Below are positions 12,165-35,998 of a stretch of 57,259 nucleotides of DNA, piece by piece. The position numbers and the translations under genes were made by a program. The notes beneath the pieces were generated by a model. The model saw nothing but the letters and a program-made list of their open reading frames with translations. It was not told where the DNA came from and did no database searches. Source of the stretch: Methanobacteriota archaeon (GTDB taxonomy: Archaea; Thermoplasmatota; Poseidoniia; Poseidoniales; Thalassarchaeaceae). The stretch spans positions 1-57,259 of the forward strand of contig PBPH01000051.1 in the NCBI GenBank assembly GCA_002725475.1, given 5' to 3'. Positions within the stretch are counted from its first letter, which is position 1. Each line of letters begins with the position of its first letter.

Positions 12165-12168
12165 AGGC

Positions 12169-12183
12169 GGTCCCCTAGGGACC
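12169..12183 (-). promoter_or_regulatory. GC-rich hairpin (GGTCCC-cta-GGGACC) 4 nt upstream of the proposed start codon of the giant surface-protein gene
   Basis: Perfect 6-bp inverted repeat read directly from the sequence. An analogous hairpin abuts the paralog at 43924..43940. Confidence 0.3.
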
Positions 12184-12277
12184 GTTCGGAGTTCCATTTC
12201 AATGCTTTGGGTATTAGATGAACACACTTTTACCAAAACAGTAACAACAAAGATGCTTTCGAAGAGGTTGGATTGCG

Positions 12278-13117: not shown

Positions 13118-13133
13118 TGGGAGCGAAAGGAAG

Positions 13134-14057: not shown

Positions 14058-14072
14058 AAATTCCATCTTGCA

Positions 14073-15566: not shown

Positions 15567-15653
15567 ATACCTTGCTCAACTCCTTCTGTTTTGAACCTGC
15601 GCCCGTTCATCAAAGGGTAGTTATCAAAGAGGATGAACTCTACCCGGCCAATA

Positions 15654-15841
15654 TGGAGGAATCCAGATCAGCTAGAATTTCCTCTCAAAGTGTTGAGCGC
15701 CGGCTTTCAGATTTGAAGCGAGAAGTGGATGCAATCAAGCGCATATTATCTCAAGCATCTCTTAATCGTTTAACTGCAGAAGTTGAGCGCCAAGAAACTG
15801 ACATCAATGTAATTGAAGAAGATTTACACCGTAGTATCTAG
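15654..15841 (+). CDS. Possible small coiled-coil protein (62 aa)
   Basis: This is the downstream ATG of the listed ORF 15539..15841; the upstream part overlaps the S2P gene. The sequence is heptad-like (RRLSDLKREVDAIKRILSQ...). No homology recognised. Confidence 0.25.
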
Positions 15842-15848
15842 AAATTTA

Positions 15849-18265: not shown

Positions 18266-18364
18266 ATTTTCACTTCATGATGAGCACTCTGGGTGCTCTA
18301 ATCAAGCATTGAAAAGAGGCGACCCTATTTGAACTACAACCTATGAAGGATTAGAAAACAAATG

Positions 18365-19486: not shown

Positions 19487-19577
19487 ACAGGGCCGACTAG
19501 GGTCCGCATTTCAAGGCTAATGTGTTAAAGTCATGCACAGAGAGGTTTGATTAGGGATGTACTAGTGTGCGGTTAAC

Positions 19578-21944
19578 ATGAAATTAAGCCATTTACTGTT
19601 ATTGATATTGCCGCTGGCGGCCATTAGCCCAATGTTGCAGTTAGGTGACAGTAATCTTGAGACAATAGAAACCCATAATCAATCAGCAAAATCCAGTTCA
19701 ATTATGGTAGTGAATGAAAAAATAAATTGGTCATTTTCAAATGGCGACTATATGATTTATGATTCGACTAACATGTCTGAAGATATGCGCTCGAACATGG
19801 CAGGAGACCCTCATTGGGATCAAGTTGTTCTTAATTGGGCGGATGTAATCCGCATCGATTTTCTCCAAGATGAGGCATGCACTGTCGCATCATATAATGG
19901 GCAATGTCATAAGAGACAAATGAAAACCCAAATGAACATTACAGGCGAAAACAACACAAATAATGAAAAGATGTCAATGAATATTTCAATTCAGAATACA
20001 AATTTGATTCCTTTAACCTATTCTGGTTGGGAAGTGGAGATAATTGAAACAAATACTAGGATGTGGATGGGTGAATTGACTACAGGGCATTTGGAGTTTA
20101 GATCAGATAGATGGGTAAACTCAACAAATGAAATTGAGACCACAGGTTGGCAGTCTAATTACACTGTAGGCACATCTTGGAATGAGCATACACATACTTG
20201 GACCAATTCTACAACTGAAGAATTTAGCGAATTTAATCATAGTGGGAACTGGATGCCAAATTATTTCACTGACTCTGAGTCACTCGATGAAGAAAAAGAT
20301 TGGTTCTATGATGCCACACAAGAAGTACCAGTTACGTTCAATGGATACAATTTAGCAAACAGCGCAGGATCGAGCCCAACTACGTTAGATGGGATTTTGC
20401 TTGAGGTATGGGAGGACGATAAGGGGAATCTAATCCAAGAGCAATCTGAACATTACGGGGAGTATGGATATCCTTTATCTATGGCTGGAGGCGATATAAC
20501 TGAACTCTACCATTCTTTTGGTGCCACGATGGGTTCTGACACCGATGGTGATGGTGTTAGCGATGGCTCAGATTTATGCCCAAATACTCCTCCTGGTTCT
20601 ACGGTGGATTCTGATGGCTGCACTTGGGACGAAAGAGACGATGATGGCGATGGGGTGTTGAACCCTGCTGATAATTGTGCAGACACAACCTCATCGATGA
20701 CAGATGTCGATGCGCAGGGTTGCGCCTATGAACAGCGGGATGATGATAGCGATGGAGTGCTGAACCCTGCAGATCAATGCCCAACTACAGCAGCCAATTC
20801 TAATGTCGATAGTAATGGGTGCGCTCCTTATCAATTGGACTCAGACAACGATACTGTATCCGATGCTAATGACAGTTGTCCCGGCCATGATGATTTAATT
20901 GACGTTGACGGCGACGGAACTCCTGATGGGTGTGATACTCTAATTGATAATGATGGAGACGGAATCAGCAACGCAGCAGATTTGTGTGAAGGTCATGATG
21001 ACTCCATAGATATTGATCAAGATGGGACCCCTGATGGTTGCGATTCATTAATCGATTCAGATTCAGATGGGGTTGCGGACAGTAATGATCTATGCCCTGG
21101 TCATGATGATAGCATAGATGTAGATAGCGATGGCATTCCAGATAATTGCGACTCATTAATCGATTCAGACTCAGATGGAGTTTCAGACGGCACCGATGCT
21201 TGCCCTGGTTTTGATGACAGTGTTGACGCAGATTCAGATGGCATCCCTGATGGTTGTGATGACTTCGTCGATTCGGATTCAGATGGGGTTGCAGACTCAG
21301 ATGACAAATGCTTGGGATATGATGATACTATTGATTTAGATTCTGATGGCATTCCTGATGGTTGTGATTCACTACTCGATTCTGATGGTGACGGTGTTTC
21401 TGACACAAACGATCAGTGCCCAGGTTACATCGATAGTTTTGATGCAGATTCAGATGGAATACCAGATGGTTGTGATGATTTAATTGACAATGATGGAGAT
21501 GGTGTCTCTAATGGTCAGGATTTGTGTCCAAGTACTGATTCTGGTGTCACAGTGGATGATACCGGCTGTAAGAAGATAGTAACTTCTTCTACTTCAGAGG
21601 CAAGTGGGGGCTTTTCTCCAATAATGGCAGGAGGATTGATTGCCGCAGTGATTGTTGCTATATTGGTGGTAGTATTCGTCATGAGACAAAGAAGCTCTCA
21701 ACCCAGAGTTGATGAAGGGATTCCTGATTTGGGGGGCCCTTCCGCAAAACCAACAAGTTCACCTTCTGGTAACGCCTTCTCTCCATCTGTTGCTGCCGCT
21801 CCACCAATGCCAGCGCAGCCTCACCCATCGCAATCAGGAGAAGTACAACCTAACGGATACGAGTATCTCGAACATCCTGCAAATTCAGGTAATTGGTGGT
21901 ATCGAACCCAAGAGAACAGCAATTGGTTTGAATGGCAAAGATAA
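19578..21944 (+). CDS. Secreted, C-terminally anchored protein with thrombospondin type-3-like calcium-binding repeats
   Basis: Signal peptide MKLSHLLLLILPLAAISPML. About 10 DxDxDGxxDxxDxC units, of which 6-7 form 36-aa tandem repeats (e.g. DSLIDSDSDGVADSNDLCPGHDDSIDVDSDGIPDNC). TM helix IMAGGLIAAVIVAILVVVFVM and a Pro-rich tail. Confidence 0.8.
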   Translation: MKLSHLLLLILPLAAISPMLQLGDSNLETIETHNQSAKSSSIMVVNEKINWSFSNGDYMIYDSTNMSEDMRSNMAGDPHWDQVVLNWADVIRIDFLQDEACTVASYNGQCHKRQMKTQMNITGENNTNNEKMSMNISIQNTNLIPLTYSGWEVEIIETNTRMWMGELTTGHLEFRSDRWVNSTNEIETTGWQSNYTVGTSWNEHTHTWTNSTTEEFSEFNHSGNWMPNYFTDSESLDEEKDWFYDATQEVPVTFNGYNLANSAGSSPTTLDGILLEVWEDDKGNLIQEQSEHYGEYGYPLSMAGGDITELYHSFGATMGSDTDGDGVSDGSDLCPNTPPGSTVDSDGCTWDERDDDGDGVLNPADNCADTTSSMTDVDAQGCAYEQRDDDSDGVLNPADQCPTTAANSNVDSNGCAPYQLDSDNDTVSDANDSCPGHDDLIDVDGDGTPDGCDTLIDNDGDGISNAADLCEGHDDSIDIDQDGTPDGCDSLIDSDSDGVADSNDLCPGHDDSIDVDSDGIPDNCDSLIDSDSDGVSDGTDACPGFDDSVDADSDGIPDGCDDFVDSDSDGVADSDDKCLGYDDTIDLDSDGIPDGCDSLLDSDGDGVSDTNDQCPGYIDSFDADSDGIPDGCDDLIDNDGDGVSNGQDLCPSTDSGVTVDDTGCKKIVTSSTSEASGGFSPIMAGGLIAAVIVAILVVVFVMRQRSSQPRVDEGIPDLGGPSAKPTSSPSGNAFSPSVAAAPPMPAQPHPSQSGEVQPNGYEYLEHPANSGNWWYRTQENSNWFEWQR
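20531..21569 (+). repeat. In-frame coding tandem repeats (about 108-nt period over 20838-21480) encoding TSP3-like Asp/Cys units
   Basis: Repeated gattcagattcagatgg.../gatggcattcctgatggttgtgat blocks are visible in the DNA and in the translated protein. Confidence 0.85.
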
Positions 21945-23062: not shown

Positions 23063-23162
23063 TTTACATTATTTCCTCCTTCAGTATTCAGTACTTTCGC
23101 GTAGCGAAGGCTTTTGTACCCTCTTCAAGGAGAGGCAATATCGAGGGGGCGTGGGCACCGAC

Positions 23163-23906
23163 ATGATGAATATTACAGCTAGGCAAGATACCTTTAGAAT
23201 GGTAGTCGATATCTTATCCACGTTGGTTGAAGAGGCGCGCTTTAATTTTGAGGACGACAAACTTGTAATCAGAATTGTTGATCCTAGTCATGTAGCCATG
23301 ATTCAAATGGAAGTTGACTCGGCAGCGTTTGAATCCTGGGAGGTCGCAGAAACAGTGTTGGGCTTGGAATTATCTAAAATTTCCAAACTAGTTCAACTGG
23401 CTGGTGCGGGTGATTTAATCGTTATGAATTACAATGACGCTGTAGGAAAGGTAGAGTTCCAAGTTGGCGAAATTCAAAGGACAATCCGCCCACTTGATAG
23501 ACAAAATATGCAGGAGCCAAAAGTACCGGAACTTGATACCAACATTTCAGTTAGCCTTACGGGAGCAAAGTTTTCTCGTGCCCTCAAAGCCGCTGATCAA
23601 GTTGGGGATTTGGTAACGTTCTCAATAGATCAAAACAGATTCAGTGTCAATGTGACTGGTGAATCCGATGCTGTAAATGTTAGTTATGAATCCGGAGAGT
23701 TACAAGAGTTAGTTTGTGATAATCCTGTGAAAAGCCAATACAGCCTTCAATACTTGCTTCCACTGGCTAAGCGAATAGAAGCAACAGTTGAAACAGTAAC
23801 AGCCAAATTTGGTGAAAACTATCCCCTAAGGCTTGAATTTACTTTCGCCGACGGTGGTGCGAATGTCATTTACTTCCTAGCCCCAAGGGTCGAAGGGGAC
23901 GCGTAA
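23163..23906 (+). CDS. pcn: DNA polymerase sliding clamp (PCNA)
   Basis: About 247 aa with the typical archaeal PCNA N-terminus pattern (FRMVVDILSTLVEEARFNFEDDKLVIRIVDPSHVAM...). The ORF is open from a GTG at 23151. The ATG at 23163 follows a GAGGGGG Shine-Dalgarno-like element. Confidence 0.9.
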   Translation: MMNITARQDTFRMVVDILSTLVEEARFNFEDDKLVIRIVDPSHVAMIQMEVDSAAFESWEVAETVLGLELSKISKLVQLAGAGDLIVMNYNDAVGKVEFQVGEIQRTIRPLDRQNMQEPKVPELDTNISVSLTGAKFSRALKAADQVGDLVTFSIDQNRFSVNVTGESDAVNVSYESGELQELVCDNPVKSQYSLQYLLPLAKRIEATVETVTAKFGENYPLRLEFTFADGGANVIYFLAPRVEGDA

Positions 23907-24359: not shown

Positions 24360-25058
24360 TCAAATTTTTTCAGCAATTGCTAATGTGTTGAGTTGTCCAT
24401 TAAGAAAAGTTTTCCATCTATGGATGTTGAAAGTATGCTTTTTTCCTTCAATATTGATGTTAATTACATTCTGGCCTTCAACTTCAAAAGATTGGGGCGG
24501 AAGTCCCATTCCAAGGCCTATAGCCTTTTGAACAGCCTCTTTAGCTACCCAAACATCGGTAGTTCGTGAAGATGCAATTTCTTCATCATTATCAAATAGA
24601 GATTCTAAAATCATTTTTTCTTCACCAGAAGACATCATGCTGAGAAGATTTCTAGGGCGGGTCATAACTGGTTCGAGATCTAAACCAATATCAGCCCCCT
24701 TAGGGCCCAATGCGGCAGCCGCAAACCCGCCGCTATGGGTGATTGTAATGGAAGGGGCATTTGGGCCGATTAGCCGAGGTCTTCGAAAATCATCACGTTC
24801 AATTATGAATGAATTAGGATTACGCCCACTCTTCAACAATAGATACTCGATTAACCAACGTCCAGCAGCATGTTCTTCAGCTCTCTTAGCAGTAACAAAA
24901 CTCTCGGCTTCGGATGGATCGACGAAAATCAGATTCGATATATTTGGAACTGGTTCGGTAGGGTTAGTGGGTCGAACTCTAATCCAAGCAGCAATGGTGT
25001 CTCTTGGGCACCCATCAGGAAGATCAAGAAAAGCCGGTTCCCCATACTTCAACCACAT
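24360..25058 (-). CDS. 4'-phosphopantetheinyl transferase, Sfp/PfaE type
   Basis: 232 aa. IGLDLEP (GxD metal motif) and WVAKEAVQKA ((W/F)xxKE(A/S)xxK motif) at the spacing expected for Sfp-type PPTases. Lies 29 bp downstream of the megasynthase stop. Confidence 0.8.
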   Translation of the reverse strand: MWLKYGEPAFLDLPDGCPRDTIAAWIRVRPTNPTEPVPNISNLIFVDPSEAESFVTAKRAEEHAAGRWLIEYLLLKSGRNPNSFIIERDDFRRPRLIGPNAPSITITHSGGFAAAALGPKGADIGLDLEPVMTRPRNLLSMMSSGEEKMILESLFDNDEEIASSRTTDVWVAKEAVQKAIGLGMGLPPQSFEVEGQNVININIEGKKHTFNIHRWKTFLNGQLNTLAIAEKI

Positions 25059-25087: not shown

Positions 25088-28000
25088 TTAATTGCGATTT
25101 AGTGTGAATTTTTCCGCATCTGATAGCGGGGCCATTCCCTTTAATCTAAGGCCATTCAATGCCAAAACTGGTTTGCCATTCTGATTAATTATCAAACCGT
25201 CGTGATTTGTGATTCCACCTTCATCTCCACCGATTCTAAGGGTGCGTATTCTCAATGTATCATTTTTTTCTGATTTCCGAATCAATTCAACATGGTCTAT
25301 TCCAATTGGTAGAGATTGTAACTCATCAACTTCCATTGCTGCCATACCCGCATTTTGGAAACAAGCTTCGATTAACATTGGTTGTGCTTCCAATTTCATC
25401 ATTCCATCAGCAAATAGATTGGTATCAGGTAATTGATTTCGATTGAGTGCAATTCCATCAATCCCCTGCATTTCTTCAATCTGACAACCACATATTATTC
25501 CACCATGGGATTGGAATTTCGGCCCGTGGAAGAATCGTTTGTATATGAAATCAGGATTATCTGGGGTGCCATCTTGAGCAGGGATTCCTATTGATGGTAG
25601 GTGCAATAATCCTCGATCAGCGCCAACCTTTAGCATTCTAACAATACCTTCGTGATGCACTCTTGGCTCTCCAAAGGTTTCCCCCGACTTGTTAATCAAA
25701 TCAGATTCTAGATGACATGAAATCCAAACATTATCATCATCCTGCTTAGAAAAATTAGCCACAACTCTAACTTTCTGTTCATCGTGTAATAACTTAACTG
25801 GCAAGCCAAATTTGACATCATTAAATCCTATGACTGTACAAGGCGGCCAAAGTAATTGAGCAGCTTCTGCAAACATTTCCAATGCCATTACTCCTGGGTG
25901 ATAAGGAACCCCATCAATCGCATGATCAATTAGGAAAGGATATCGATTAACATCAAGAGTACACTCGTATGTAAGTTGATCAAAGTCCTCATGGGAAACA
26001 ATTTTTTCTACAAATGGAAATCGCTTCGCATCTTCCATTAGAGCAGAAACTTCAGGAGAGAGTCTCTGAGGCGGTTTTCTGTCACTCCCATCATCGTTGA
26101 GAACTCCAAGTTGCCCTGCAATTACTACCTTTCTCTTTCCACCACACATTACCTCATCAACAAATAGATTGACACCATTTTCGACTGAGACAGTTTCAAT
26201 TCCCGCCTCTTCAAAGACCTTCTCTATTGAACCCCTAGTCGCCATACCTACATCCCTCCATCCAGTCCATGCCAGTGCAACTCCTTGCGGTTCATTTTCT
26301 GTATGTGCAAGGCGGGACATCTCAGCATCTAGAATACAGTTTGCTGCAGCATAGTCAGTCTGACCAGCATTTCCAAAACGTCCAGCAATTGAAGTAAAAA
26401 CACAACAATATCTGAGCTCACTACTGTAGTCTTTTACAGCGTTAACCAATGCTTGCCAGCCATCGACCTTTACGGCCATAACTTGAGAAAAGGTTGACCA
26501 TTGCTTGTCAGCAACAAGTTTGGAATCTTCAATTCCGGCGCCGTGAATTATTCCAGTGACGGCCCCTCTCTTTTTCTTCAATTTCTTCAAAACTTTTCGA
26601 ATCTGCTTCCCATCTGTAATGTCACATGAATGATAAGAAGCAGTGTTTCCACTTTCACGAATTGAATGTAGGGTTTTGTGGATATCAATTGAACGAGTAA
26701 CTCTTGCCCATTCTCTTTCCCATTCAACAATTGTCACCTTTTCAGCCCCTTCTTGTAATTGCTCTCGTAATGACATCTTCATTTGCTGAAGTTCCTCATC
26801 GCCGGCAGAAATTTTGCTAACAAGGGAATCATCCAATTTGGTACGACCTAGCAACGCAAAATGCACGCCAACATCGAGATTCGCTTCTGCCAATCCAACC
26901 ATGCAGGCAGAAGTTACTCCTGTCCCTCCTCCAGATACAAGTAGAACATCATCAGATTGCAATGATTTCCGTTCTGATTCGTGCGGCTCATCGTAAATAC
27001 AAACAGCCCATCTACGGCCATCCGCATCAATCCCTAGTTCTCTGGGGCCCATCTGGTTAATCTCTTCCAAAATGGTATTGGCCAGGGAACTGGCATCTAC
27101 CAATAATTCGGGTGCGACATCGATTGCCCTAGATCTGATGTTTGGTCTTTCACGACCATAGGACTTTACTATCCCGTGTGCGCCAGCCCCAAGTGCATTG
27201 AATCTATGTCCCCCATTGCCATGTCTTCCGTCAAGAGCGGAAACAGAGCAGACAATTCCATCGTCTCTCTCTGCTAATTTACCATCAATAATTCGCAAAA
27301 CACCAAACAGGCCGTGACAAACCATCTGAGTTTGCTGCCGACTAGTTACTTCAGCCCAAGCCATCCCAGCAAGCGTGCAAGGGGCAGTATGGATTACTCC
27401 GACAACATCTAATGGTGCAAGAATTGCTCCAAACTGGGAGAGATGGGCCTCATTACCAGGGTCAAGCCTGATGATGTCTACCTCTCCATCTTTCTCTACC
27501 CTGATTTTTGATTTTATACTAGGATCTAACATTAGACGTACAGCCTCAGTTCCAGCCATCTCTAATTCTTGACAAATTGCATCACCAAGCCCCCATGAAT
27601 CATCTGTTACAATTAGATATGAGCCCTTCATTTCTATGGGGGCTGGCTCATTTAGTTCAGCTTCCTCTACTTCTACAACCCAACGACGAACTCCGATCTC
27701 ATCCACAACATTTTCCATTGTATTTTCCACAACATCTTGCTCAGGTAACTCAATTTCATCTACAGTTTCATCATTATCATCATTTTCTATTTTGGCTTGA
27801 TTCTGAGGAATACCTACACTCATTGAGATGATATAGGAAATCATATGCGCAAGTGTAGGATAATCACGTAACTGGAAAGATTCGTCAACGGGTAGCGAGA
27901 ACTGCTCTCGGCAATCAGCCATTATTTCAGCCTGTTTTACAGTGTCAATTCCTAATTCGCCTTCTAAATCTTGATCTAATTCAAGGAAATCTTCAGGATA

Positions 28001-31000
28001 TCCAGTATGTTTTACAACGATAGAGAGGACAACATCCTCAACTTCTGAATTGCTATGAATCGGAACCTCCTTTTCATCCGAAACCTCTTCCACCACCTCT
28101 TCAGTCTGTTTTGATTCTGTTTCTTGACTTGGAGTCGATATTGTTGGTTCATTTCCTTGGTCGGACATTGTGCAAATGTATGCAATCATATGGTTGAGTG
28201 TCGGGTGTTCTCTTAACTGGAAAGATTCGTCAACAGGTAATGAAAACATTTCTCGTAAATCGGCCATTATTTCAGCCTGTTTTACGGTGTCAATCCCTAA
28301 CTCTCCTTCAAGGTCTTGATCAAGTTCAATAAAATCAGTAGGATAACCGGTATGCTCTGCAACTGTTTTCACAACCTTCACAACAATTTCTTCGTTAGTT
28401 GATTTTGGTATAGTGACTTTACTAACCTCTTCCCGCTTTTCTATAGGGGTAGCCGGGATTTCGTTAGTTTTGATTTCAGTCACATTCTTTTCTTCAATTT
28501 TAGTTACTTTAGTGACAGGTTTAGAGTTTGAATCTGGTGCTGCATCCTGCTTTGTAGGAATCCATTCATCGCCATCCACGCCACCGATTAGATTTTCATC
28601 TGGCGCAACATAAGCGACGAGTTTTCTTTCTAAAATACGAGTAACAATGTCGCCTCCAACTTGCGTCCTTGTCCAATTCTCGACACTTTCCTTATCGATT
28701 CTATTTGTTGTTCGAGCAATTCTCTTGAACAATGTTAGAGCAATCTGGCTTCCAAATCCAGCAGCATGTCGGAACATGTATTCGATGTCATAAGAACCAC
28801 CTACTGAGAGCCTCAGATTACCAAGTTCTGGATCCGGCTGCTTGAAATTTGCAATAGGTGGCAGGCGTCCAGATGCTAATCCATACAACCCTGTAGCATC
28901 TTCAATTCCCACCCCCATAGGATGTCCCGTGAAACCTTTCGTATTGGTAATAATTAGATCATCAGCCGATGTACCGAAAGCACCTCTTAATGATTCGACT
29001 TCAGCAGCTGCAGAACCACCACGGGGTGGAGTAAATGGTTCATGCGACATGAAAGTTGTTTGTCGGGCGATTTCGTGTCGGTCAATCCCCCAATCTTTCT
29101 CCATCTTTGATACAAACTCTTCGAAAGTAGTGGCTACGTGATTAACATCTAGTCGAGTGGGGTGGAATGCAGAATTACCAATATGGGCACCAAGTAATTC
29201 CGCATATGGTATAATTCCTCTATCGGAGGCATGTGACGATTTTTCTATTACAAACGCCGCACCACCCATCCCAAGTAACATTCCGTTTCTACGTACATCA
29301 AATGGTAGAGCAACATCCTCTACGACATTACCCATTGAGTGTGCCCCAGCTGCAGCAAAACCAGTACCAATCCATTCCATCAAGTCATCACCAGTTGAGT
29401 CATCCCCGCTAATGACAATGACTCTGTCACATCTTCCCGATGACAACCAATCCTCAGCAATAGCAAAGGCGGCTGGTGTTGATGCGCAAGCGTTGTTTAT
29501 CGCTGCATTTGGCCCTCTTGCTCCTATCCATTGAGCAAATTGTGCATGCCCCATTGTTAGAACTTGTAGCAGAAATTTTCGATCAAAAGTACCATCTTCA
29601 TCAGCCCCATTGTTTTGTGCATGGCGCATTGCCATGGCCAAACCAGGCCAAACGGACGCGAATACAACACCAGTACGCTCTTTGATTGTAGATGGGAGGT
29701 TCCAACCTCTCACAAGTCGTTTGCCAGCACTACTCGATTGCTCAACGGGAATTAATGGCAAACCTGCATCTTTCAACGCTTCAAGTCCAGCAGCGAAAGA
29801 AAGAGTCGTTGATACATCCATTGCTGCTACAATCTTGGGATCAATTCCATATTGTTCTGACAAATCAAAATATCCGCCAATTCCTGCGAGTTGAGGTATA
29901 GTGTCAAATGAATCACAAGGAACAAATTCAGCTCTACCATCCTTATGTTTCACAATTCTAACGATGTTTTTATCGAGTAATTTCAATTTGGTTTCTTCAG
30001 GAAGTTCGCTTATGAAATTCTCTCCAGCAATTATTCTTTCTAGCGCATCATCACTAAACACCTCATCCATTCCTGGAAGTCCTAGACTAATTCCAGTAAC
30101 AACATAAGGGTTGATTTGTCGTTCCACAATTGAATTGCTTGCTAATGAAGTTCCCCCCCCTATTTGCTTGACCTTTTTTGTGAAACTAGGGGGTGGTGTC
30201 GTAACCCATTCGACAAGCGCTGATAACGTAGTTAGAGAATCATCAATTGGATGTTTTACAGATGATTCAGAAGAGATTCTGCCAAGTAATTGTGCTAGGC
30301 CCTCTCCAAATATTCCGAGAGTAGTTAGTTCTAATTCTCCTTTTATCATTCGAGCAGGGTACCCACAAACATCTGAAATTCGGTCTGCTAAATAACCTTC
30401 AACATCATCTTCCTGTTCGATTAATTGATTGGTTTGAATTTTGGTAGTAAGTGTAGGTGATTCTATGGTAGGGAAAGGCCTTGAGCGAGTACGCAGTTCT
30501 TCCCATTCTGAACTAGTGATTACTGATTCTTTTGGTAATCCTAAATTCTTCTGCCCCCAAACCTCTATTGGTCCAGCACGGAAACCTTCAGTCAATCTCA
30601 AAGAATCATGAGCATGCATTTCAGATTGTCTTCCCGACAGAGAACAGATGGCTAGAGATGAAAGGAATGATGCCACCCCTCCTACCTTTGGATGGTTCGT
30701 GTTAGTCACAACGAATGGGCGCCCCCCCTCTGATGATGCATTTTCATCCAATATTTGCTCAGCAAATAGAGCCAGGGCTCGTTTCGGTCCGACCTCCATA
30801 AAGAGCCTCCCTCCGCTTTCATACATTGTACGAATCTGTTTGGTCCATTCTACGGCCGAAGACATCTGAGGGGCTAACTGCCCCAGAATCGCCTGTTGAA
30901 CCGATTGATTCTGTTCCAATATTTCTGGATAGAAATTACCATCATAGTTTGCAGTGATTGGAATAGATGGAAGTGAAAGTTCTAAATCTTCAAGAAATTG

Positions 31001-33544
31001 CCTTAGCGGCTCATTAGCAGGGGCAACTATCTTTGAATGGAAAGCATGACTTGTCTGTAACTTTACACATTGTACATTTAATTCGGCAAATCTTCTAATT
31101 GCTTCGTTCATAGATTCTGTATCACCTGCAATAACAGTCATCAATGGAGAATTTTTGTTCGCAGCTATCACATATCCATCTATTGAATTTATCACCTCTT
31201 CAACTCTTTCAATAGGTGCTGTAACACTTGCCATAATCCCTTGATCAGGGACATCTACGTTACCCATTTCAGTCCCTCGAGCAGCAGCAGCTCTCAGAGC
31301 GTCATGGAATTTTAGAATCCCCGCAACCATCAATGCTGCATACTCGCCAAGGCTATGTCCAGCAACCATGTCAGGCTCAATTCCATGTTCAAGAAGAAGG
31401 CGATAGAGTGCTAAGTCTGCAGTCAGCATCGCAGGCTGAGTATATTCTGTCTGTTTCAATTTCTCTTCTGCAATTCTTGCATCCTCTTCTGAAAGATTTT
31501 CTCTTAGCACAAACTCAGAGAGAGTCTCCCCACCTAGGATTTCTATCATAGTGCGGTCCGCTTCAATCCATGTTTCACCCACAACTTCAAATCTCTTTGA
31601 CAAATCTAGTGTCATCCCAACATATTGGCTACCTTGCCCCGGAAACATCTGTACAAGTTTAGCATCAGGGGTGAGAGGTGGGTCATCTGTAATGAATACC
31701 ATCTGTTTTGCGAGGAAAGCCCATTTTGATTTATCAGACAGATTATCTTCAAGTAAATTCAGTCTCTTCTCCAATTGCGCCCAACTTGTGGCAACTACAC
31801 CACATCGGACACCTTCGGCTTTGAATCCATTAGATAGTGCAGATAATGCAACTGAAAGCCGCCGCCCCTCTGGAGAGTCATCAAAAGTTGGTGAAGATGG
31901 GGCAAGAAGCGCAATTTTGGCCATAGTGATTTCATCAGATAGTAAATCTAGAGTAGGAGCATTGAGTAATAGTAATCCACCTTCAATTTCTTTCAATTCA
32001 TCGTGTGTCATTGAAGGTTTGGCGTTTTGATCAAGAACACTGGCAGCAGAAGGTGGCTTGGATTCACTGGTTTTAGAAAGTTCAATTTCATTCACCATTT
32101 TCAGATGATATTCAGGATCATATTGTTCTAGGGTACAATGGAAATTGGTCCCTCCAAATCCGAACGATGAAATTCCTGCTCTTCTGGGTATTCCTGATTG
32201 GGGCGGTGGCCATTCACTGGCCATTGTTGGAACAAAGAATGGGATTTCGTCCCAGTTAACCGAAGTATTTGGCTGTTCAAAACCCGCAGACGGAGGAATA
32301 GTCCTATGATGAAGTGAAAGACAGGCCTTGAGTAACCCTACCATTCCAGCGGCCGCCTTCAAATGACCGATTTGACTTTTTACAGAACCAACAGCCACGT
32401 TATCTCCACCACTTTTCTCTGAGAAAATCTCTGCCAAAGCAGAGAGTTCAGTCGCATCACCTACTTTCGTACTTGTTCCATGAGCCTCAATCAATTCAAC
32501 AGATGATGCAGAGTAACCAGCTTGTTGGTAGGCACGTATTACTGCTTGTTTCTGACCTCTTATCGAGGGTGCTGTAATTCCCTTTCCTCTTCCGTCGCTA
32601 GAAGCACCAATTCCTCTAATAACACTGTAAATAACATCTCCATCACTTATTGCATCTTCCAGCCGTTTGAGGACAATACAACCAGCCCCTTCGCCCATTA
32701 CAAAACCATTAGCACGTGCATCAAACGGGCGTGAATGAATGGGCGATAATGCTCCAATAGCGGAGAATTTTGCATATGTTCCTGGATCCATGGTACAATC
32801 GCTGGCACCACATAGCATTACATCTGTCTGGCCTGTTTGTAGCATTTGACAAGCAGAAACTAGTGCTGCAAAGGTACTTGCACAAGCAGCATCAGCACTG
32901 AAGTTAGGTCCTTGTAAATCAAGAAGGTTTGCAACTCTTCCAGCAACTACATTTGCCAATTCACCAGGCATTGTATCCTCATCAATTCGAGGTTTTCCTT
33001 GAGTAATTGATTCTTTGAATTGCTTAATTTCTTCTTCAGGCATCCCCGCTTCAACAGCTTTCCTTGCAAATTGATCGGCATAGATTCGGTGACTAGACAT
33101 CACTCGATTCTCTCCACCTAGGGCATTAGCAAATATGACGCCACATCTCTCATTTGGCAACTCAAGCCGTTTTCTTTCACCAAGATAACCAGCATCTTCT
33201 AGTGCAGAGGCGGACACCTCAACTGCCCATAATTGAGTATCATCAATTTGTTCAAGTGTGCCTGGTGGCTGTTTCCATCTTCGCCAATCAAACTCAAAAT
33301 TCTCTATAAATGCCCCAATTTTTGAGTACGTCTTGTTTTCTAACACATTACCGGGTTCCCCTTCAACCCAGAAGTCATCAGTATTCCATCTATCATGTGG
33401 TACTTCTTTAATCGAAACATGTGCATTAATCACATTATCCCAGAATTTGTCAATATCTGGTGCGTCTGGCAGTAGTGCTGATACACCAACGATTGCAATC
33501 GGTGAGAATGATTGCTGGGGCTTTTCTTCAAGTTGGTTACTCAT
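25088..33544 (-). CDS. Type-I fatty-acid/polyketide (PfaA-like) megasynthase: KS - AT - degenerate ACP-like - KS - ACP - ACP - KR - DH
   Basis: Single 2818-aa ORF. The catalytic motifs listed in the domain features below are all intact. I verified the codons of Cys221 (tgt, 32882-32884), Ser731 (agc, 31352-31354) and Cys1353 (tgc, 29486-29488) in the DNA. Confidence 0.9.
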   Translation of the reverse strand: MSNQLEEKPQQSFSPIAIVGVSALLPDAPDIDKFWDNVINAHVSIKEVPHDRWNTDDFWVEGEPGNVLENKTYSKIGAFIENFEFDWRRWKQPPGTLEQIDDTQLWAVEVSASALEDAGYLGERKRLELPNERCGVIFANALGGENRVMSSHRIYADQFARKAVEAGMPEEEIKQFKESITQGKPRIDEDTMPGELANVVAGRVANLLDLQGPNFSADAACASTFAALVSACQMLQTGQTDVMLCGASDCTMDPGTYAKFSAIGALSPIHSRPFDARANGFVMGEGAGCIVLKRLEDAISDGDVIYSVIRGIGASSDGRGKGITAPSIRGQKQAVIRAYQQAGYSASSVELIEAHGTSTKVGDATELSALAEIFSEKSGGDNVAVGSVKSQIGHLKAAAGMVGLLKACLSLHHRTIPPSAGFEQPNTSVNWDEIPFFVPTMASEWPPPQSGIPRRAGISSFGFGGTNFHCTLEQYDPEYHLKMVNEIELSKTSESKPPSAASVLDQNAKPSMTHDELKEIEGGLLLLNAPTLDLLSDEITMAKIALLAPSSPTFDDSPEGRRLSVALSALSNGFKAEGVRCGVVATSWAQLEKRLNLLEDNLSDKSKWAFLAKQMVFITDDPPLTPDAKLVQMFPGQGSQYVGMTLDLSKRFEVVGETWIEADRTMIEILGGETLSEFVLRENLSEEDARIAEEKLKQTEYTQPAMLTADLALYRLLLEHGIEPDMVAGHSLGEYAALMVAGILKFHDALRAAAARGTEMGNVDVPDQGIMASVTAPIERVEEVINSIDGYVIAANKNSPLMTVIAGDTESMNEAIRRFAELNVQCVKLQTSHAFHSKIVAPANEPLRQFLEDLELSLPSIPITANYDGNFYPEILEQNQSVQQAILGQLAPQMSSAVEWTKQIRTMYESGGRLFMEVGPKRALALFAEQILDENASSEGGRPFVVTNTNHPKVGGVASFLSSLAICSLSGRQSEMHAHDSLRLTEGFRAGPIEVWGQKNLGLPKESVITSSEWEELRTRSRPFPTIESPTLTTKIQTNQLIEQEDDVEGYLADRISDVCGYPARMIKGELELTTLGIFGEGLAQLLGRISSESSVKHPIDDSLTTLSALVEWVTTPPPSFTKKVKQIGGGTSLASNSIVERQINPYVVTGISLGLPGMDEVFSDDALERIIAGENFISELPEETKLKLLDKNIVRIVKHKDGRAEFVPCDSFDTIPQLAGIGGYFDLSEQYGIDPKIVAAMDVSTTLSFAAGLEALKDAGLPLIPVEQSSSAGKRLVRGWNLPSTIKERTGVVFASVWPGLAMAMRHAQNNGADEDGTFDRKFLLQVLTMGHAQFAQWIGARGPNAAINNACASTPAAFAIAEDWLSSGRCDRVIVISGDDSTGDDLMEWIGTGFAAAGAHSMGNVVEDVALPFDVRRNGMLLGMGGAAFVIEKSSHASDRGIIPYAELLGAHIGNSAFHPTRLDVNHVATTFEEFVSKMEKDWGIDRHEIARQTTFMSHEPFTPPRGGSAAAEVESLRGAFGTSADDLIITNTKGFTGHPMGVGIEDATGLYGLASGRLPPIANFKQPDPELGNLRLSVGGSYDIEYMFRHAAGFGSQIALTLFKRIARTTNRIDKESVENWTRTQVGGDIVTRILERKLVAYVAPDENLIGGVDGDEWIPTKQDAAPDSNSKPVTKVTKIEEKNVTEIKTNEIPATPIEKREEVSKVTIPKSTNEEIVVKVVKTVAEHTGYPTDFIELDQDLEGELGIDTVKQAEIMADLREMFSLPVDESFQLREHPTLNHMIAYICTMSDQGNEPTISTPSQETESKQTEEVVEEVSDEKEVPIHSNSEVEDVVLSIVVKHTGYPEDFLELDQDLEGELGIDTVKQAEIMADCREQFSLPVDESFQLRDYPTLAHMISYIISMSVGIPQNQAKIENDDNDETVDEIELPEQDVVENTMENVVDEIGVRRWVVEVEEAELNEPAPIEMKGSYLIVTDDSWGLGDAICQELEMAGTEAVRLMLDPSIKSKIRVEKDGEVDIIRLDPGNEAHLSQFGAILAPLDVVGVIHTAPCTLAGMAWAEVTSRQQTQMVCHGLFGVLRIIDGKLAERDDGIVCSVSALDGRHGNGGHRFNALGAGAHGIVKSYGRERPNIRSRAIDVAPELLVDASSLANTILEEINQMGPRELGIDADGRRWAVCIYDEPHESERKSLQSDDVLLVSGGGTGVTSACMVGLAEANLDVGVHFALLGRTKLDDSLVSKISAGDEELQQMKMSLREQLQEGAEKVTIVEWEREWARVTRSIDIHKTLHSIRESGNTASYHSCDITDGKQIRKVLKKLKKKRGAVTGIIHGAGIEDSKLVADKQWSTFSQVMAVKVDGWQALVNAVKDYSSELRYCCVFTSIAGRFGNAGQTDYAAANCILDAEMSRLAHTENEPQGVALAWTGWRDVGMATRGSIEKVFEEAGIETVSVENGVNLFVDEVMCGGKRKVVIAGQLGVLNDDGSDRKPPQRLSPEVSALMEDAKRFPFVEKIVSHEDFDQLTYECTLDVNRYPFLIDHAIDGVPYHPGVMALEMFAEAAQLLWPPCTVIGFNDVKFGLPVKLLHDEQKVRVVANFSKQDDDNVWISCHLESDLINKSGETFGEPRVHHEGIVRMLKVGADRGLLHLPSIGIPAQDGTPDNPDFIYKRFFHGPKFQSHGGIICGCQIEEMQGIDGIALNRNQLPDTNLFADGMMKLEAQPMLIEACFQNAGMAAMEVDELQSLPIGIDHVELIRKSEKNDTLRIRTLRIGGDEGGITNHDGLIINQNGKPVLALNGLRLKGMAPLSDAEKFTLNRN
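25130..26032 (-). other. Megasynthase domain: PKS-type (double hot-dog) dehydratase (aa ~2505-2805)
   Basis: LIDHAIDGVPYHPGV (HxxxGxxxxP, His2541). The second-half motif PMLIEACFQ is ExxxQ where DxxxQ/H is usual. Confidence 0.7.
26105..27682 (-). other. Megasynthase domain: ketoreductase with structural subdomain (aa ~1955-2480)
   Basis: Rossmann motif LLVSGGGTGVTS (aa 2201-2212) and catalytic region TDYAAAN (Tyr2398), the PKS/FAS-type KR signature. Confidence 0.8.
27815..28048 (-). other. Megasynthase domain: ACP 2 (aa ~1833-1910), Thr1868 at the acceptor position
   Basis: LDQDLEGELGIDTVKQAEIMADCRE. Here the Thr codon is ACT, so it is not a copy artefact of ACP 1. Confidence 0.8.
28160..28399 (-). 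other. Megasynthase domain: ACP 1 (aa ~1716-1795), Thr1753 at the acceptor position
   Basis: LDQDLEGELGIDTVKQAEIMADLRE. The codon at 28286-28288 is ACC (Thr) where carrier proteins normally have the Ser of the DS(L/I) motif. Confidence 0.8.
28715..30109 (-). other. Megasynthase domain: ketosynthase 2 (aa ~1146-1610), active-site Cys retained
   Basis: NNACASTPAAF (Cys1353), an atypical first His box MSHEPFTPPRGG (His1501), and NTKGFTGHPMG (His1541). It is not a Gln-type chain-length factor. Confidence 0.75.
30200..30412 (-). other. Megasynthase segment: degenerate ACP-like region lacking an acceptor residue (aa ~1045-1115)
   Basis: YLADRISDVCGYPARMIKGELELTTLGIFGEGLAQLL parallels the true ACPs (VAEHTGYPTDFIELDQDLEGELGIDTVKQAEIM), but has GIFGEG in place of GID(S/T). 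Confidence 0.4.
30770..31657 (-). other. Megasynthase domain: acyltransferase, malonyl-type (aa ~630-925)
   Basis: FPGQGSQ, GHSLGEY (Ser731) and the HAFH specificity motif (SHAFHS, aa 832-837). Confidence 0.85.
32120..33505 (-). other. Megasynthase domain: ketosynthase 1 (aa ~14-475)
   Basis: IAIVGVSALLPDA...FW N-terminus as in PfaA-type KS, with DAACAS (Cys221), EAHGTST (His355) and KSQIGHLK (His394). Confidence 0.85.
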
Positions 33545-33553: not shown

Positions 33554-34429
33554 TCAATCTGATATGCTATCCGGTACCATCGTGCTTGAATATCCAGCAT
33601 CTACGTGAATAATCTGTCCTGTGACCCCTGATGAAAGCGGTGAGGCAAGCCAAACAGCGCAGCCGGCAACATCCTTCTGATTCACATTTCTTCGAAGTGA
33701 TGAATTTCTCTCGACATGATTTAGGATGTCATCAAACCCTGGAATTCCACTAGCAGCGAGTGTTTGAATCGGCCCGGGTGAAATGGCATTTACTCGATGT
33801 CCTTCGGGACCAATATGATTGGCTAATTCGCGTGTCCAAGCCTCCAGCGCTGCTTTTGCAATACTCATCACCCCATAGTTTGGAACCCAGCGTGTAGATG
33901 CAGCATAGGTTAGAGTGATTGTAGAAGAGTTGGGTGCAAGGTGTGGTAAAGCATGGCGCATTACTCTCTGTAATGAGTGAGCACTAACCGTCATTGCGAT
34001 GTTCATAGGCTCATTTTCAGCAAAAAGTATTGGTCTGTCGAAACATTCCCTTGGAGCGAATCCTATTGCGTGAATTACAATGTCAGCCTTAGCCCCAGGA
34101 TTCTCAGCTTGCCATTCTGTGAAGAATTCAGCAGTCAACTCATTGGTAGAAACATCGATTGGATAGAATGCCTCAATGGCATCTAAATTCTCTTTCAATT
34201 GGAAAACACGACTCATAAAACGTCTCTGAAAACCAAGAATTAGTTTGCAACCAGCAGCTGCTAATTGTTCGCAAATTGCCCATGCGATGCTTTCCTCACT
34301 AGCGACGCCAAACACTAGTGCAGTCTTTCCCTCTAGTTCCAACATGAAACCACCTGTTCCTCCCAACATCGATTCGCCGGCGACATCGGCTTCAAGACCT
34401 TTGCCCACTCTGTGAAGTGAATGCATCAT
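33554..34429 (-). CDS. fabI: Enoyl-[acyl-carrier-protein] reductase, FabI type (SDR)
   Basis: LEGKTALVFGVASEESIAWAI N-terminus and PNYGVMSIAKAALEA (Tyr-x6-Lys, as in E. coli FabI PNYNVMGLAKASLEA). The homology-consistent start is the ATG at 34345 (MLELEGK...); the ORF is open to 34429. The stop lies 9 bp upstream of the megasynthase start. Confidence 0.85.
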   Translation of the reverse strand: MMHSLHRVGKGLEADVAGESMLGGTGGFMLELEGKTALVFGVASEESIAWAICEQLAAAGCKLILGFQRRFMSRVFQLKENLDAIEAFYPIDVSTNELTAEFFTEWQAENPGAKADIVIHAIGFAPRECFDRPILFAENEPMNIAMTVSAHSLQRVMRHALPHLAPNSSTITLTYAASTRWVPNYGVMSIAKAALEAWTRELANHIGPEGHRVNAISPGPIQTLAASGIPGFDDILNHVERNSSLRRNVNQKDVAGCAVWLASPLSSGVTGQIIHVDAGYSSTMVPDSISD

Positions 34430-35392: not shown

Positions 35393-35998
35393 TCAATCTT
35401 CAACATCGAGAACTTCTTCGGAAATATTTTCGTCAATTTCGTCTTCCTCATGTTTTTTCAGTAAAACTTTAACAAACAACTTTTCAGATTCGAATCTTGT
35501 TCCCCAGTGTGTGGCAGCCATTTCAACGAGATTTTTGTGCCTCGCACCAAGTGAAACGCCCCTACCATTGGAGAAAAACAGAAGATCCATGTCATGCATC
35601 TTATCGTTAATTCGAATACAATCTAGTCTAGAATCCTCCTCAAACTCAGGAAAATATTCTGATACTTGATCAATTCTCAAAGGTTGTCCATAATCAAAAG
35701 ATACGACCAGTGGTCCTTTCTCAGTAGTCAATCCCTCGTCAGCCCTGCCTAGTCTTAGTAACATTTCACGAGCAGCAGCCCATGCAATTTCAGAATGATT
35801 GGTGCCGTGAACAACCAATCTTCCGTCCTGATCGACTAGCAATGTGGCGCGTGGATTCTTAAGAGCTAAAATTACAAATTTACCACTTTTTTTGCCTCCA
35901 AGAGTAGTTATCACCTCTTCAGAGTTGAAAGGTTCTGGTGCCGTGAAACGTATCAATTGATTTTCAACGCGAACTTCAACAGCACTTTTTCTAGCCAT
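35393..35998 (-). CDS. Divergent TATA-box-binding-protein-like protein (two TBP-type repeats, acidic tail)
   Basis: 201 aa. Repeat 1 (VEVRVENQLIRF...PRATLLVDQDGRLVVHGTNHSEIAWAAAREMLLRLG) and repeat 2 (LVVSFDYGQPLRIDQVSEYFPEFEED...MDLLFFSNGRGVSLGARHKNLVEMAA) follow the TBP pattern (IENIVAS...EYEPEQFPG...LLIFSSGK.V.TGAKS). Ends in an acidic tail. Confidence 0.5.
   Translation of the reverse strand: MARKSAVEVRVENQLIRFTAPEPFNSEEVITTLGGKKSGKFVILALKNPRATLLVDQDGRLVVHGTNHSEIAWAAAREMLLRLGRADEGLTTEKGPLVVSFDYGQPLRIDQVSEYFPEFEEDSRLDCIRINDKMHDMDLLFFSNGRGVSLGARHKNLVEMAATHWGTRFESEKLFVKVLLKKHEEDEIDENISEEVLDVED

What the first reader, a model, noticed from the sequence alone, without database searches (positions are those of the whole stretch)
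27815..28399. Both tandem ACP domains carry Thr instead of the universally conserved phosphopantetheine-acceptor Ser
Seen in sequence: both carrier domains read ...LEGELGIDTVKQAEIM..., with Thr1753 (codon ACC, 28286-28288) and Thr1868 (codon ACT, about 27941-27943). Type-I PKS/FAS and PfaA ACPs have LGxDS(L/I) at this point. The two Thr residues use different codons inside diverged DNA copies, so the substitution is maintained and is not a sequencing error or a recent copy artefact. Established knowledge: PPTases transfer 4'-phosphopantetheine to the hydroxyl of that Ser, and Ser-to-Thr variants are usually poor or inactive substrates. Inference: one possibility is that the adjacent PPTase is adapted to a Thr acceptor, which would be an unusual post-translational chemistry. 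Alternatively, the carriers may work without a canonical prosthetic arm, or another residue may be modified.
Basis: partly seen in the sequence, partly recalled or inferred. Interest (0 to 1): 0.7.

Follow-up and report, generated by a model that had tools for sequence, protein, structure and literature searches.

The report
Threonine-type acyl carrier domains, archaeal synthase
Both carrier domains of a giant fatty-acid/polyketide-type synthase from a marine archaeon have threonine where every studied carrier protein has the serine that holds its cofactor arm; this threonine turns out to be the conserved norm in a large bacterial and archaeal enzyme family that keeps its own arm-attaching enzyme, which points to an undescribed threonine-linked form of the modification.

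Summary
ORF 25088-33544 (-) is a 2818-aa PfaA-like synthase (KS-AT-KS2-ACP-ACP-KR-DH) in a Marine Group II (Poseidoniales) archaeal context. Both ACPs read LGIDTVKQAEIM, with Thr1753 (ACC) and Thr1868 (ACT). These Thr align with the DS serine of solved ACPs and form the first residue of helix II in a confident model.

It is not a local oddity. In 69 other species-level Poseidoniales loci all 187 domains have Thr, using all four ACN codons. Thirteen loci have Ser (TCN) in every domain, and no locus mixes the two. Among the 150 best representatives of the wider family, which includes Elusimicrobia, Polyangiaceae, a cultured Nonomuraea and Heimdallarchaeota, 132 are all-Thr. Ser forms are nested and arose several times.

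A Sfp-type PPTase with intact catalytic residues lies directly downstream in the archaea. It is fused to the synthase C-terminus in 48 of the 150 representatives, and 41 of those are all-Thr. No other conserved Ser exists in the domain.

Best explanation: the Thr is the phosphopantetheine acceptor, loaded by a dedicated PPTase lineage that takes Thr or Ser. This is inferred, not shown. E. coli ACP S36T is unmodifiable, and I found no report of Thr-linked phosphopantetheine. New variant of a known kind; interest is high.

The parts
25088..33544 (-). 2818-aa PfaA-like iterative type I synthase with domain order KS1-AT-KS2-ACP-ACP-KR-DH
   Evidence: It is a single ORF. Pfam finds ketoacyl-synt (2 stretches), Acyl_transf_1, PP-binding (2 stretches), KR, PKS_DH_N and PS-DH. 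TIGR02813 PfaA scores 863 bits, below its 1010 cut-off. There are 120 full-length Poseidoniales orthologs at 53-89% identity.
28166..28387 (-). ACP domain 1 (residues 1720-1793), motif DQDLEGELGIDTVKQAEIM
   Evidence: It matches the family ACP HMM at 138 bits and Pfam PP-binding. The AF2 model has pLDDT 86.4, and its Foldseek matches are ACPs.
28286..28288 (-). Thr1753 codon ACC, at the phosphopantetheine acceptor position of ACP1
   Evidence: Read directly. It aligns with the DS Ser of solved ACPs. It is the first residue of helix II in the model.
27821..28045 (-). ACP domain 2 (residues 1834-1908), with the same motif as ACP1
   Evidence: It matches the family ACP HMM at 138 bits. It is 71% identical to ACP1 in protein and 68% in DNA.
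27941..27943 (-). Thr1868 codon ACT, at the acceptor position of ACP2
   Evidence: Read directly. It uses a different synonymous codon from ACP1.
24360..25058 (-). Sfp-type 4'-phosphopantetheinyl transferase (232 aa). Its start codon lies 29 nt downstream of the synthase stop, so the two genes are probably co-transcribed.
   Evidence: Pfam ACPS PF01648 scores 38.8 bits (cut-off 25), and 4PPT_N is weak. The match to Sfp and AASDHPPT in PDB is weak. Equivalents of Sfp H90, D107, E109, W147, E151 and K155 are present as H108, D127, E129, W170, E174 and K178. A homolog lies directly downstream of the synthase in 54 Thr-type loci (window included) and 11 Ser-type loci, and is fused to the synthase in 48 of 150 family representatives.
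32114..33505 (-). KS1 domain (residues 14-477), with Cys in DAACAS and His in EAHGTST
   Evidence: Pfam hit and motif scan.
30653..31648 (-). Acyltransferase domain (residues 633-964), with GHSLG and HAFH motifs
   Evidence: Pfam hit and motif scan.
28844..30103 (-). KS2, a second FabF-like ketosynthase domain (residues ~1148-1567, Cys in NNACAS). It lies between the AT and the ACPs and is the hallmark of this family.
   Evidence: Pfam ketoacyl-synt E = 3.4e-15. Best PDB matches are FabF enzymes at about 1e-23. This is the most conserved part of the hits in the representative search.
25139..26686 (-). KR domain (Pfam stretch 2287-2431, YAAAN motif) and DH domain (2510-2802, HxxxGxxxxP motif)
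   Evidence: Pfam hits and motif scan.
33554..34429 (-). FabI-like enoyl-ACP reductase (291 aa) directly upstream of the synthase; probably the trans-acting ER
   Evidence: Pfam adh_short_C2 E = 3.2e-67. A short-chain dehydrogenase gene sits in the same position in L001 and L002.

Best explanation
The two Thr residues are the real 4'-phosphopantetheine attachment sites. The downstream Sfp-type PPTase takes the phosphopantetheine moiety from CoA and puts it on the side-chain oxygen of Thr1753 and Thr1868, at the N-terminus of helix II. The product would be an O-(4'-phosphopantetheinyl)-threonine holo-carrier.

The holo-ACPs then shuttle malonyl and acyl intermediates between KS1/KS2, AT, KR, DH and the trans FabI-like enoyl reductase, in an iterative fatty-acid or polyketide-type cycle.

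This is not peculiar to the window. Thr is the ancestral and dominant acceptor in a large bacterial and archaeal family of KS-AT-KS2-ACPn-KR-DH synthases. That family carries its own PPTase, either as the next gene or as a C-terminal domain. The PPTase lineage appears to accept Thr and Ser alike, so Ser reappears sporadically.

Shown here: the position, the conservation, the selection, the linkage to a PPTase and the intact catalytic motifs. Inferred: the transfer to Thr itself.
For: 1. Acceptor column. The Thr aligns with the DS Ser of solved ACPs and starts helix II in a confident model.

2. Selection. In 189 Thr-type domains from 70 species-level Poseidoniales loci (window included), DQDLEGELGIDTVKQAEIM is almost invariant while synonymous sites are saturated. 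The Thr codons are ACG 65, ACT 44, ACA 41 and ACC 39. In the protein-cluster set, 108 of 120 orthologs are all-Thr, covering 246 domains.

3. Breadth. Of the 150 best 50%-identity representatives of the KS2-ACP region, 132 are all-Thr with DLGIDTVKQAE. Named members include Elusimicrobia and Polyangiaceae and the cultured Nonomuraea gerenzanensis.

4. Interchange with Ser at the same site.
- Thirteen Poseidoniales loci have Ser (TCN) in all copies.
- Ser clades are nested among Thr clades at four or more places in the tree.
- P0352 has intact Ser, Thr and Ser domains in one chain.

5. Decayed copies. Copies with D, G or E at the site have lost the whole motif, whereas Thr copies keep it perfectly.

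6. No alternative acceptor. The other Ser positions in the domain are variable.

7. Dedicated PPTase.
- It lies directly downstream in 54 Thr-type loci (window included) and 11 Ser-type loci.
- It is fused to the C-terminus in 48 of 150 representatives, of which 41 are all-Thr.
- The Sfp D107, E109, E151 and K155 equivalents are conserved.

8. The synthase's own catalytic motifs are intact, so it needs a working carrier.
Against: - There is no direct evidence of modification.
- In the best-studied system the same substitution is dead. [quoted passage not shown]
- I found no report of Thr-linked phosphopantetheine in ten literature searches, so the chemistry is unprecedented as far as I can tell.
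- No PPTase residue was found that explains acceptance of a secondary alcohol.
- The PPTase could not be modelled. The single-sequence AF2 model had pLDDT 38.
Confidence: 0.75

Rival explanations
1. The Thr-type domains are never phosphopantetheinylated. They would act as structural, regulatory or decoy carrier-like domains, and the chemistry would run on CoA thioesters or on an unlinked carrier encoded elsewhere. Archaeal fatty-acid synthesis has been proposed to be ACP-independent.
For: E. coli ACP S36T is unmodifiable (PMC3340395). Archaea generally lack ACP systems (established knowledge). No MS data exist.
Against: - The helix II recognition motif is invariant under saturated synonymous change, while truly decayed copies lose it.
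- Orthologs with Ser at the same site are otherwise equivalent.
- A PPTase with intact catalytic residues is adjacent or fused even when every carrier in the chain has Thr: 41 all-Thr proteins carry a fused PPTase.
- There is no other carrier in the protein.
Confidence: 0.07
2. The arm is attached to another residue of the domain, for example the Thr of the conserved TGYP loop or a Ser after helix II, and the helix II Thr is only structural.
For: The Thr in HTGYP is invariant in both Thr- and Ser-type domains.
Against: - TGYP is equally conserved in the Ser-type orthologs, which have a canonical DS site.
- From memory, TGYP is also a feature of ordinary PfaA ACPs.
- The Ser residues at +19, +25 and +29 are variable.
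- The Ser/Thr alternation occurs precisely at the canonical column.
Confidence: 0.03
3. Thr is the acceptor, but only because the family's PPTase has been specifically re-tooled for Thr. On this view the adaptation is strict, Ser-type relatives use a differently specialised enzyme, and generic PPTases would fail.
For: - AcpS does not modify S36T in E. coli.
- Within a Poseidoniales protein the copies are always all-Thr or all-Ser.
- The Sfp His90 equivalent is invariant in 95 Thr-context PPTases but lost in 5 of 13 Ser-context ones.
Against: - No alignment column separates Thr- from Ser-context PPTases.
- P0352 combines intact Ser and Thr domains with one fused PPTase.
- Thr-to-Ser switches recur within one PPTase lineage.
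- The all-or-none pattern can also come from concerted evolution of tandem copies.
Confidence: 0.25
4. It is a sequencing, assembly or annotation artefact, or a recent polymorphism.
For: None beyond the rarity of Thr at this site.
Against: The same residue is found in hundreds of independent assemblies with all four codons, and in two diverged copies within the window.
Confidence: 0

Closest known systems
PfaA subunit of bacterial polyunsaturated fatty acid (PUFA) synthases (TIGR02813), with tandem ACPs carrying LGIDSIKRVEIL
   Same: It is the best NCBIfam match (863 bits; the ACP pair alone gives 6.5e-25). The order KS-AT-tandem ACP-KR-DH is shared. The ACP motifs are near-identical in form (…TGYP…EADLGID-x-[IV]K…E), and both have a dedicated Sfp-type PPTase (PfaE in PUFA systems; established knowledge).
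   Different: - The score is below the family cut-off of 1010.
- A second FabF-like KS sits between the AT and the ACPs.
- The acceptor is Thr, not Ser.
- No PfaB, PfaC or PfaD genes are in the window, and the ER is FabI-like.
- The host is archaeal.
- The PPTase is often fused to the synthase in relatives.
Canonical carrier proteins (PF00550; E. coli AcpP, PCPs, type I PKS/FAS ACPs) modified on the DS serine
   Same: The fold, the helix II position of the hydroxyl residue, the preceding Asp and the following hydrophobic residue are shared.
   Different: The hydroxyl donor is Thr, a secondary alcohol with an extra methyl group. In E. coli AcpP this exact change blocks modification and function (PMC3340395).
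Sfp-type (group II) PPTases, including the C-terminal PPT domain of fungal FAS alpha subunits
   Same: The ~230-aa enzyme matches Pfam ACPS and has the Sfp D107, E109, E151 and K155 equivalents. Like the fungal FAS PPT domain, the family's PPTase is often fused to the synthase it serves (the fungal case is established knowledge).
   Different: Sequence similarity to Sfp is marginal (E = 0.03). The presumed substrate hydroxyl is Thr.

Membership tests
Carrier protein / PP-binding (PF00550) | Profile match above the curated cut-off | tested here: met
   PF00550 scores 57.2 bits against a cut-off of 20.8, with two stretches.
Carrier protein / PP-binding (PF00550) | Small helical ACP fold with the acceptor at the N-terminus of helix II | tested here: met
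   The AF2 model has pLDDT 86.4 and helix II starts at the Thr. Foldseek top hits are ACPs with target-normalised TM 0.8-0.9 and rmsd about 1.5 A.
Carrier protein / PP-binding (PF00550) | Serine acceptor in the (D/H)S(L/I/V) motif (PROSITE PS00012 requires Ser; from memory) | tested here: not met
   Both domains have DTV. The Thr aligns with the Ser of every solved ACP matched.
Carrier protein / PP-binding (PF00550) | Covalent 4'-phosphopantetheine on that residue | not testable with these tools
   This needs mass spectrometry. The only evidence is indirect: a dedicated or fused PPTase.
PfaA of PUFA synthases (TIGR02813) | Whole-protein score above the curated cut-off | tested here: not met
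   863.2 bits against a cut-off of 1010.1.
PfaA of PUFA synthases (TIGR02813) | KS-MAT-tandem ACP-KR-DH order | tested here: inconclusive
   All these domains are present in that order, but an extra FabF-like KS is inserted before the ACPs.
PfaA of PUFA synthases (TIGR02813) | Partner genes pfaB, pfaC and pfaD (KS-CLF-DH-DH and an NMO-type ER) in the cluster | tested here: not met
   The neighbours are a FabI-like ENR, TatD, a TBP-like protein, an acyl-CoA dehydrogenase and the PPTase. No PfaC- or PfaD-like genes are in the window.
Sfp-type PPTase (for ORF 24360-25058) | ACPS superfamily profile match above the cut-off | tested here: met
   PF01648 scores 38.8 bits against a cut-off of 25. 4PPT_N scores 19.8, below its cut-off of 27.
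Sfp-type PPTase (for ORF 24360-25058) | Mg/CoA-binding and catalytic residues (Sfp D107, E109, E151, K155, H90) | tested here: met
   D127, E129, E174, K178 and H108 align with the Sfp residues.
Sfp-type PPTase (for ORF 24360-25058) | Pseudo-dimeric two-lobe fold of about 230 aa | tested here: inconclusive
   The length fits (232 aa), but the single-sequence AF2 model was unusable (pLDDT 38.5).

The most novel reading that the evidence does not exclude
O-(4'-phosphopantetheinyl)-threonine is a natural post-translational modification not on record. It would be the normal holo form of the carriers in a large, cross-domain family of KS-AT-KS2-ACPn-KR-DH synthases, installed by a family-specific PPTase lineage (adjacent or fused) that can use a secondary alcohol. 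In Marine Group II archaea, among the most abundant microbes of the surface ocean, this system would be a bacterial-style, ACP-dependent fatty-acid or polyketide synthase working inside an archaeon.
Probability: 0.7. Interest if true: 0.85.

Novelty: new variant of a known kind. Interest (0 to 1): 0.78.

Why it matters
Every textbook and every annotation rule (PROSITE, and active-site checks in genome-mining tools, from memory) treats the carrier-protein acceptor as a serine. The Ser-to-Thr change is used in E. coli as a standard dead control (PMC3340395).

A large natural family whose carriers are all Thr would:
- add a new residue to the phosphopantetheinylation repertoire;
- define a PPTase class with relaxed or altered nucleophile specificity, which could be useful for orthogonal protein labelling;
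- warn that genome-mining pipelines may score these synthases as inactive;
- bear on the 'lipid divide', because the window's host lineage (Marine Group II / Poseidoniales) is a very abundant archaeon that here carries a complete ACP-dependent synthase, enoyl reductase and PPTase.

It is directly testable. The ACP pair and the PPTase are small, adjacent genes, and a cultured actinomycete (Nonomuraea gerenzanensis) has a family member.

Tried and rejected
- **Short ACP hits.** The first homolog search with the ACP pair returned only short 'ACP' proteins, which suggested stand-alone carriers. Context look-ups showed these are fragments of the same large gene, from frameshifted long-read assemblies or short contigs. 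The idea was rejected.
- **PPTase residues that discriminate Thr from Ser contexts.** No clean column was found in 54 Thr-context versus 11 Ser-context archaeal enzymes, nor after adding the 48 fused domains, which gave 95 Thr-context versus 13 Ser-context sequences. The only difference is a relaxed His90 equivalent in one Ser clade. Phylogenetic confounding limits this test.
- **PPTase structure.** A single-sequence AF2 run gave pLDDT 38.5 and is unusable. Orthologs from fetched loci may not be submitted, so no alignment-based model or complex model was possible.
- **Third homolog search.** Run with a profile of bacterial Thr-type ACPs, it again gave only short unnamed fragments and no taxonomy.
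- **Literature.** Ten full-text searches covered MGII/Poseidoniales with PKS, FAS or ACP terms; threonine phosphopantetheinylation; the motif strings GIDTVK, LGIDT and IDTVKQ; and S36T. They found nothing on Thr-linked phosphopantetheine or on this archaeal synthase. The only relevant finding was the E. coli S36T control. The Beld et al. PPTase review is not held.
- **Degenerate third ACP.** A candidate between AT and KS2 (residues 1053-1091) has only a non-significant resemblance (E = 0.38).
- **Artefact or polymorphism.** Rejected.


Full report
**1. What is in the window**

The finding lies inside one 8.4-kb ORF, 25088-33544 on the minus strand, encoding 2818 aa. Pfam gives the order KS, AT, a second KS-like region, two PP-binding domains, KR and DH.

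The best NCBIfam match is PfaA of PUFA synthases (TIGR02813). It scores 863 bits, below the curated cut-off of 1010. The second KS (about residues 1148-1567) is FabF-like and keeps its active-site Cys.

The catalytic motifs of KS1 (DAACAS, EAHGTST), AT (GHSLG, HAFH), KR (YAAAN) and DH (HxxxGxxxxP) are all present.

Directly upstream is a FabI-like enoyl-ACP reductase (33554-34429). A 232-aa ACPS-family PPTase (24360-25058) starts 29 nt downstream of the synthase stop.

Other neighbours include PCNA, a TBP-like protein and TatD. The closest homologs are named Candidatus Thalassarchaeaceae, Poseidoniales or Thermoplasmatota. The window therefore comes from a Marine Group II archaeon.

**2.

Both carrier domains read DQDLEGELGIDTVKQAEIM. 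Thr1753 is ACC at 28286-28288 and Thr1868 is ACT at 27941-27943.

phmmer alignments against solved structures place this Thr opposite the Ser of the DS motif. This holds for PigH, the Streptomyces coelicolor FAS ACP, AcpM and the Thermotoga ACP.

An AlphaFold2 model of ACP1, built on 52 sequences, has mean pLDDT 86.4 with helices at 3-18, 39-52 and 69-82. The Thr is residue 39, the first residue of helix II. The model superposes on solved ACPs with target-normalised TM 0.8-0.9.

The two copies are 68% identical in DNA, and 24 of the 58 shared residues use different codons.

**3. It is a lineage trait, not a local oddity**

Among 120 full-length orthologous protein clusters (53-89% identity, 1-4 ACPs each):
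- 108 have Thr in every ACP (246 domains).
- 12 have Ser in every ACP (24 domains).
- None is mixed.

A scan of one genome per GTDB species found 291 matching stretches. The 80 kept loci are all Poseidoniales or unclassified 'Methanobacteriota/Euryarchaeota' MAGs.

Counting those 80 loci together with two metagenome loci of the same gene (L001, L002), 69 carry only Thr and 13 only Ser. With the window's two domains the Thr total is 189.
- Thr-type: 189 domains, codons ACG 65, ACT 44, ACA 41, ACC 39.
- Ser-type: 25 domains, TCN codons only.

The two states are therefore one first-position transversion apart.

Across the 189 Thr domains the 19-residue motif is virtually invariant, while every degenerate codon position in it is saturated. 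That is strong purifying selection on Thr itself and on the helix II surface that PPTases and partner domains read.

The other Ser residues in the domain (+19, +25, +29) are variable. There is therefore no alternative conserved acceptor.

**4. It is a family trait well beyond these archaea**

I ran an exhaustive HMMER search with the KS2-ACP region against 1.84 billion 50%-identity representatives. It found 962 proteins at E < 1e-30.

For the best 150, I read the acceptor column with an HMM of the ACP domain:
- 132 are all-Thr with the core DLG[IV]DT[VI]KQ.E.
- 3 are all-Ser: a Marine Group II protein, a Heimdallarchaeota protein and one unnamed protein.
- P0352 has three intact domains in the order Ser, Thr, Ser.
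- P0254 has four intact Thr domains plus a fifth copy that keeps Ser but has otherwise lost the motif.
- A few arrays contain a copy with D, G or E at the site. In those copies the whole motif has decayed.

Named members include an Elusimicrobia bacterium, a Polyangiaceae bacterium and 'bacterium'.

A tblastn search against PLSDB found a member in the cultured actinomycete Nonomuraea gerenzanensis. It is KS-AT-KS2-ACP(EADLGVDTVKQAEIF)-KR-DH, followed by a fused acetyl-CoA carboxylase and then a PPTase-like ORF.

A bacterial member on a 3.2-Mb contig is a 4019-aa protein. It adds an NMO-type ER and a further KS, has six Thr-ACPs, and sits next to BirA, a fused ACC and BioY. That arrangement looks like a self-contained fatty-acid synthase.

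A rough neighbour-joining tree of the region upstream of the ACPs gives these placements:
- Thr-type bacterial sequences and the Marine Group IIa clade fall outside the IIb clade.
- The Marine Group II Ser clades are nested inside the IIb clade.
- The two other Ser proteins (P0279 and P0348) each pair with a Thr protein.

Thr is therefore most simply the ancestral state, with at least four independent returns to Ser. The tree is only distance-based and should be redone properly.

**5. The PPTase link**

A homolog of the window's PPTase lies immediately downstream of the synthase wherever the contig continues. That is 54 Thr-type loci (window included) and 11 Ser-type loci.

In 48 of the 150 family representatives the same PPTase is a C-terminal domain of the synthase itself. 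Of these, 41 are all-Thr, 2 are all-Ser, and one is the Ser-Thr-Ser protein.

The equivalents of Sfp D107, E109, E151, K155 and W147 are conserved in all contexts. A PPTase kept under selection in a polypeptide whose only carriers have Thr is hard to explain unless it loads them.

I found no column that separates Thr-context from Ser-context PPTases. The only difference is that the His90 equivalent is invariant in the 95 Thr-context enzymes and lost in 5 of the 13 Ser-context ones.

**6. Mechanism proposed**

The PPTase transfers phosphopantetheine from CoA to the Thr side-chain oxygen at the start of helix II of each ACP. The holo-ACPs then serve KS1/KS2, AT, KR, DH and the trans enoyl reductase iteratively.

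Which steps are shown and which inferred:
- Shown: the position of the Thr, its conservation and selection, the Ser/Thr alternation at exactly this site, the PPTase linkage, and the intact catalytic motifs.
- Inferred: the transfer to Thr itself.

Why Thr is preferred is unknown. A phosphodiester on a secondary carbon might resist beta-elimination or AcpH-type hydrolysis, or it might restrict the arm's rotamers. This is speculation.

**7. Against**

[quoted passage not shown] Thr is therefore not a trivially acceptable substitute.

Ten literature searches found no description of Thr-linked phosphopantetheine, of the DTVKQ motif, or of this archaeal synthase. The library lacks most subscription journals, so 'not described' is provisional.

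**8. Comparison with known systems**

It works like a PfaA-type tandem-ACP synthase with a dedicated Sfp-type PPTase. It is not a PfaA member, for four reasons:
- The score is below the family cut-off.
- There is an extra KS.
- There are no pfaB, pfaC or pfaD partners.
- The acceptor is Thr.

The carrier domains meet the fold and profile criteria of PF00550 but fail the defining Ser.

**9. Verdict**

It is a new variant of a known kind. Confidence that Thr is the attachment site is about 0.75. Interest is 0.78.

Noticed in passing
window 24360-25058 compared with family representatives P0261, P0336, P0268 and others: The PPTase is a separate downstream gene in Marine Group II archaea. In 48 of 150 family representatives it is a C-terminal domain of the synthase, a gene fission/fusion polymorphism reminiscent of the PPT domain of fungal FAS.
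   Followed up: yes
L086 (Nonomuraea gerenzanensis NZ_LT559118.1, record 5989505-6013690), ORFs 5396-7210, 7207-14874, 14876-20341 and about 20425-20836: A cultured actinomycete has a Thr-type family member. It is flanked by an acyl-CoA dehydrogenase, a eukaryote-like fused acetyl-CoA carboxylase (BC-BCCP-ACC_central-CT, 1821 aa) and a PPTase-like ORF. The record is the 11.85-Mb chromosome, although PLSDB labels it a plasmid. PLSDB lists no annotated feature in this stretch.
   Followed up: partly
L083 10001-28670 (3.16-Mb bacterial contig): A 4019-aa megasynthase with NMO-type ER, KS, KS, AT, KS, six Thr-ACPs, KR and DH sits next to BirA, a 1941-aa fused ACC and BioY. It looks like a complete single-locus fatty-acid synthesis module. 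The organism was not identified.
   Followed up: partly
L018, L019, L020, L021, L028 (Ser-type Marine Group II loci), PPTase ORFs: In this Ser-type clade the PPTase has lost the Sfp His90 equivalent (SISTT or SISSS instead of SxxHS). The His is invariant in all 95 Thr-context PPTases examined.
   Followed up: partly
window 30272-30388 (-), residues 1053-1091 of the synthase: A stretch between AT and KS2 (…DVCGYPARMIKGELELTTLGIFGEGLAQLL…) resembles the GYP…LGID part of the ACP motif without any acceptor residue. It may be a decayed carrier or a docking element. The HMM match is not significant (E = 0.38).
   Followed up: partly
window 38032-43923 (-): A 1963-aa ORF with no Pfam match lies a few genes upstream of the synthase cluster. 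A 1952-aa counterpart occupies the same position in L001, so it is conserved in synteny. Its function is unknown.
   Followed up: no
L001 and L002 (long-read metagenome assemblies); proteins P0001-P0120 and P0397-P0516: In several long contigs the synthase gene is broken into 3-8 ORFs. A neighbouring Cpn60 gene is also split, which indicates indel errors. As a result, protein databases hold many spurious 100-340-aa 'acyl carrier protein' entries that are fragments of this gene.
   Followed up: yes
window 35393-35998 (-), 23151-23906 (+), 19578-21944 (+), 7119-12290 (-): The context includes archaeal housekeeping genes (a TBP-like protein with a weak Pfam TBP match, and PCNA) and large surface-type proteins (a 788-aa protein with thrombospondin type 3 repeats and a 1723-aa protein with a CARDB domain).
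   Followed up: no
window 36793-38001 (-): An acyl-CoA dehydrogenase lies four genes upstream of the synthase. An acyl-CoA dehydrogenase also directly precedes the Nonomuraea family member (L086 5396-7210), but none was seen in L001. A functional link is possible but unproven.
   Followed up: partly
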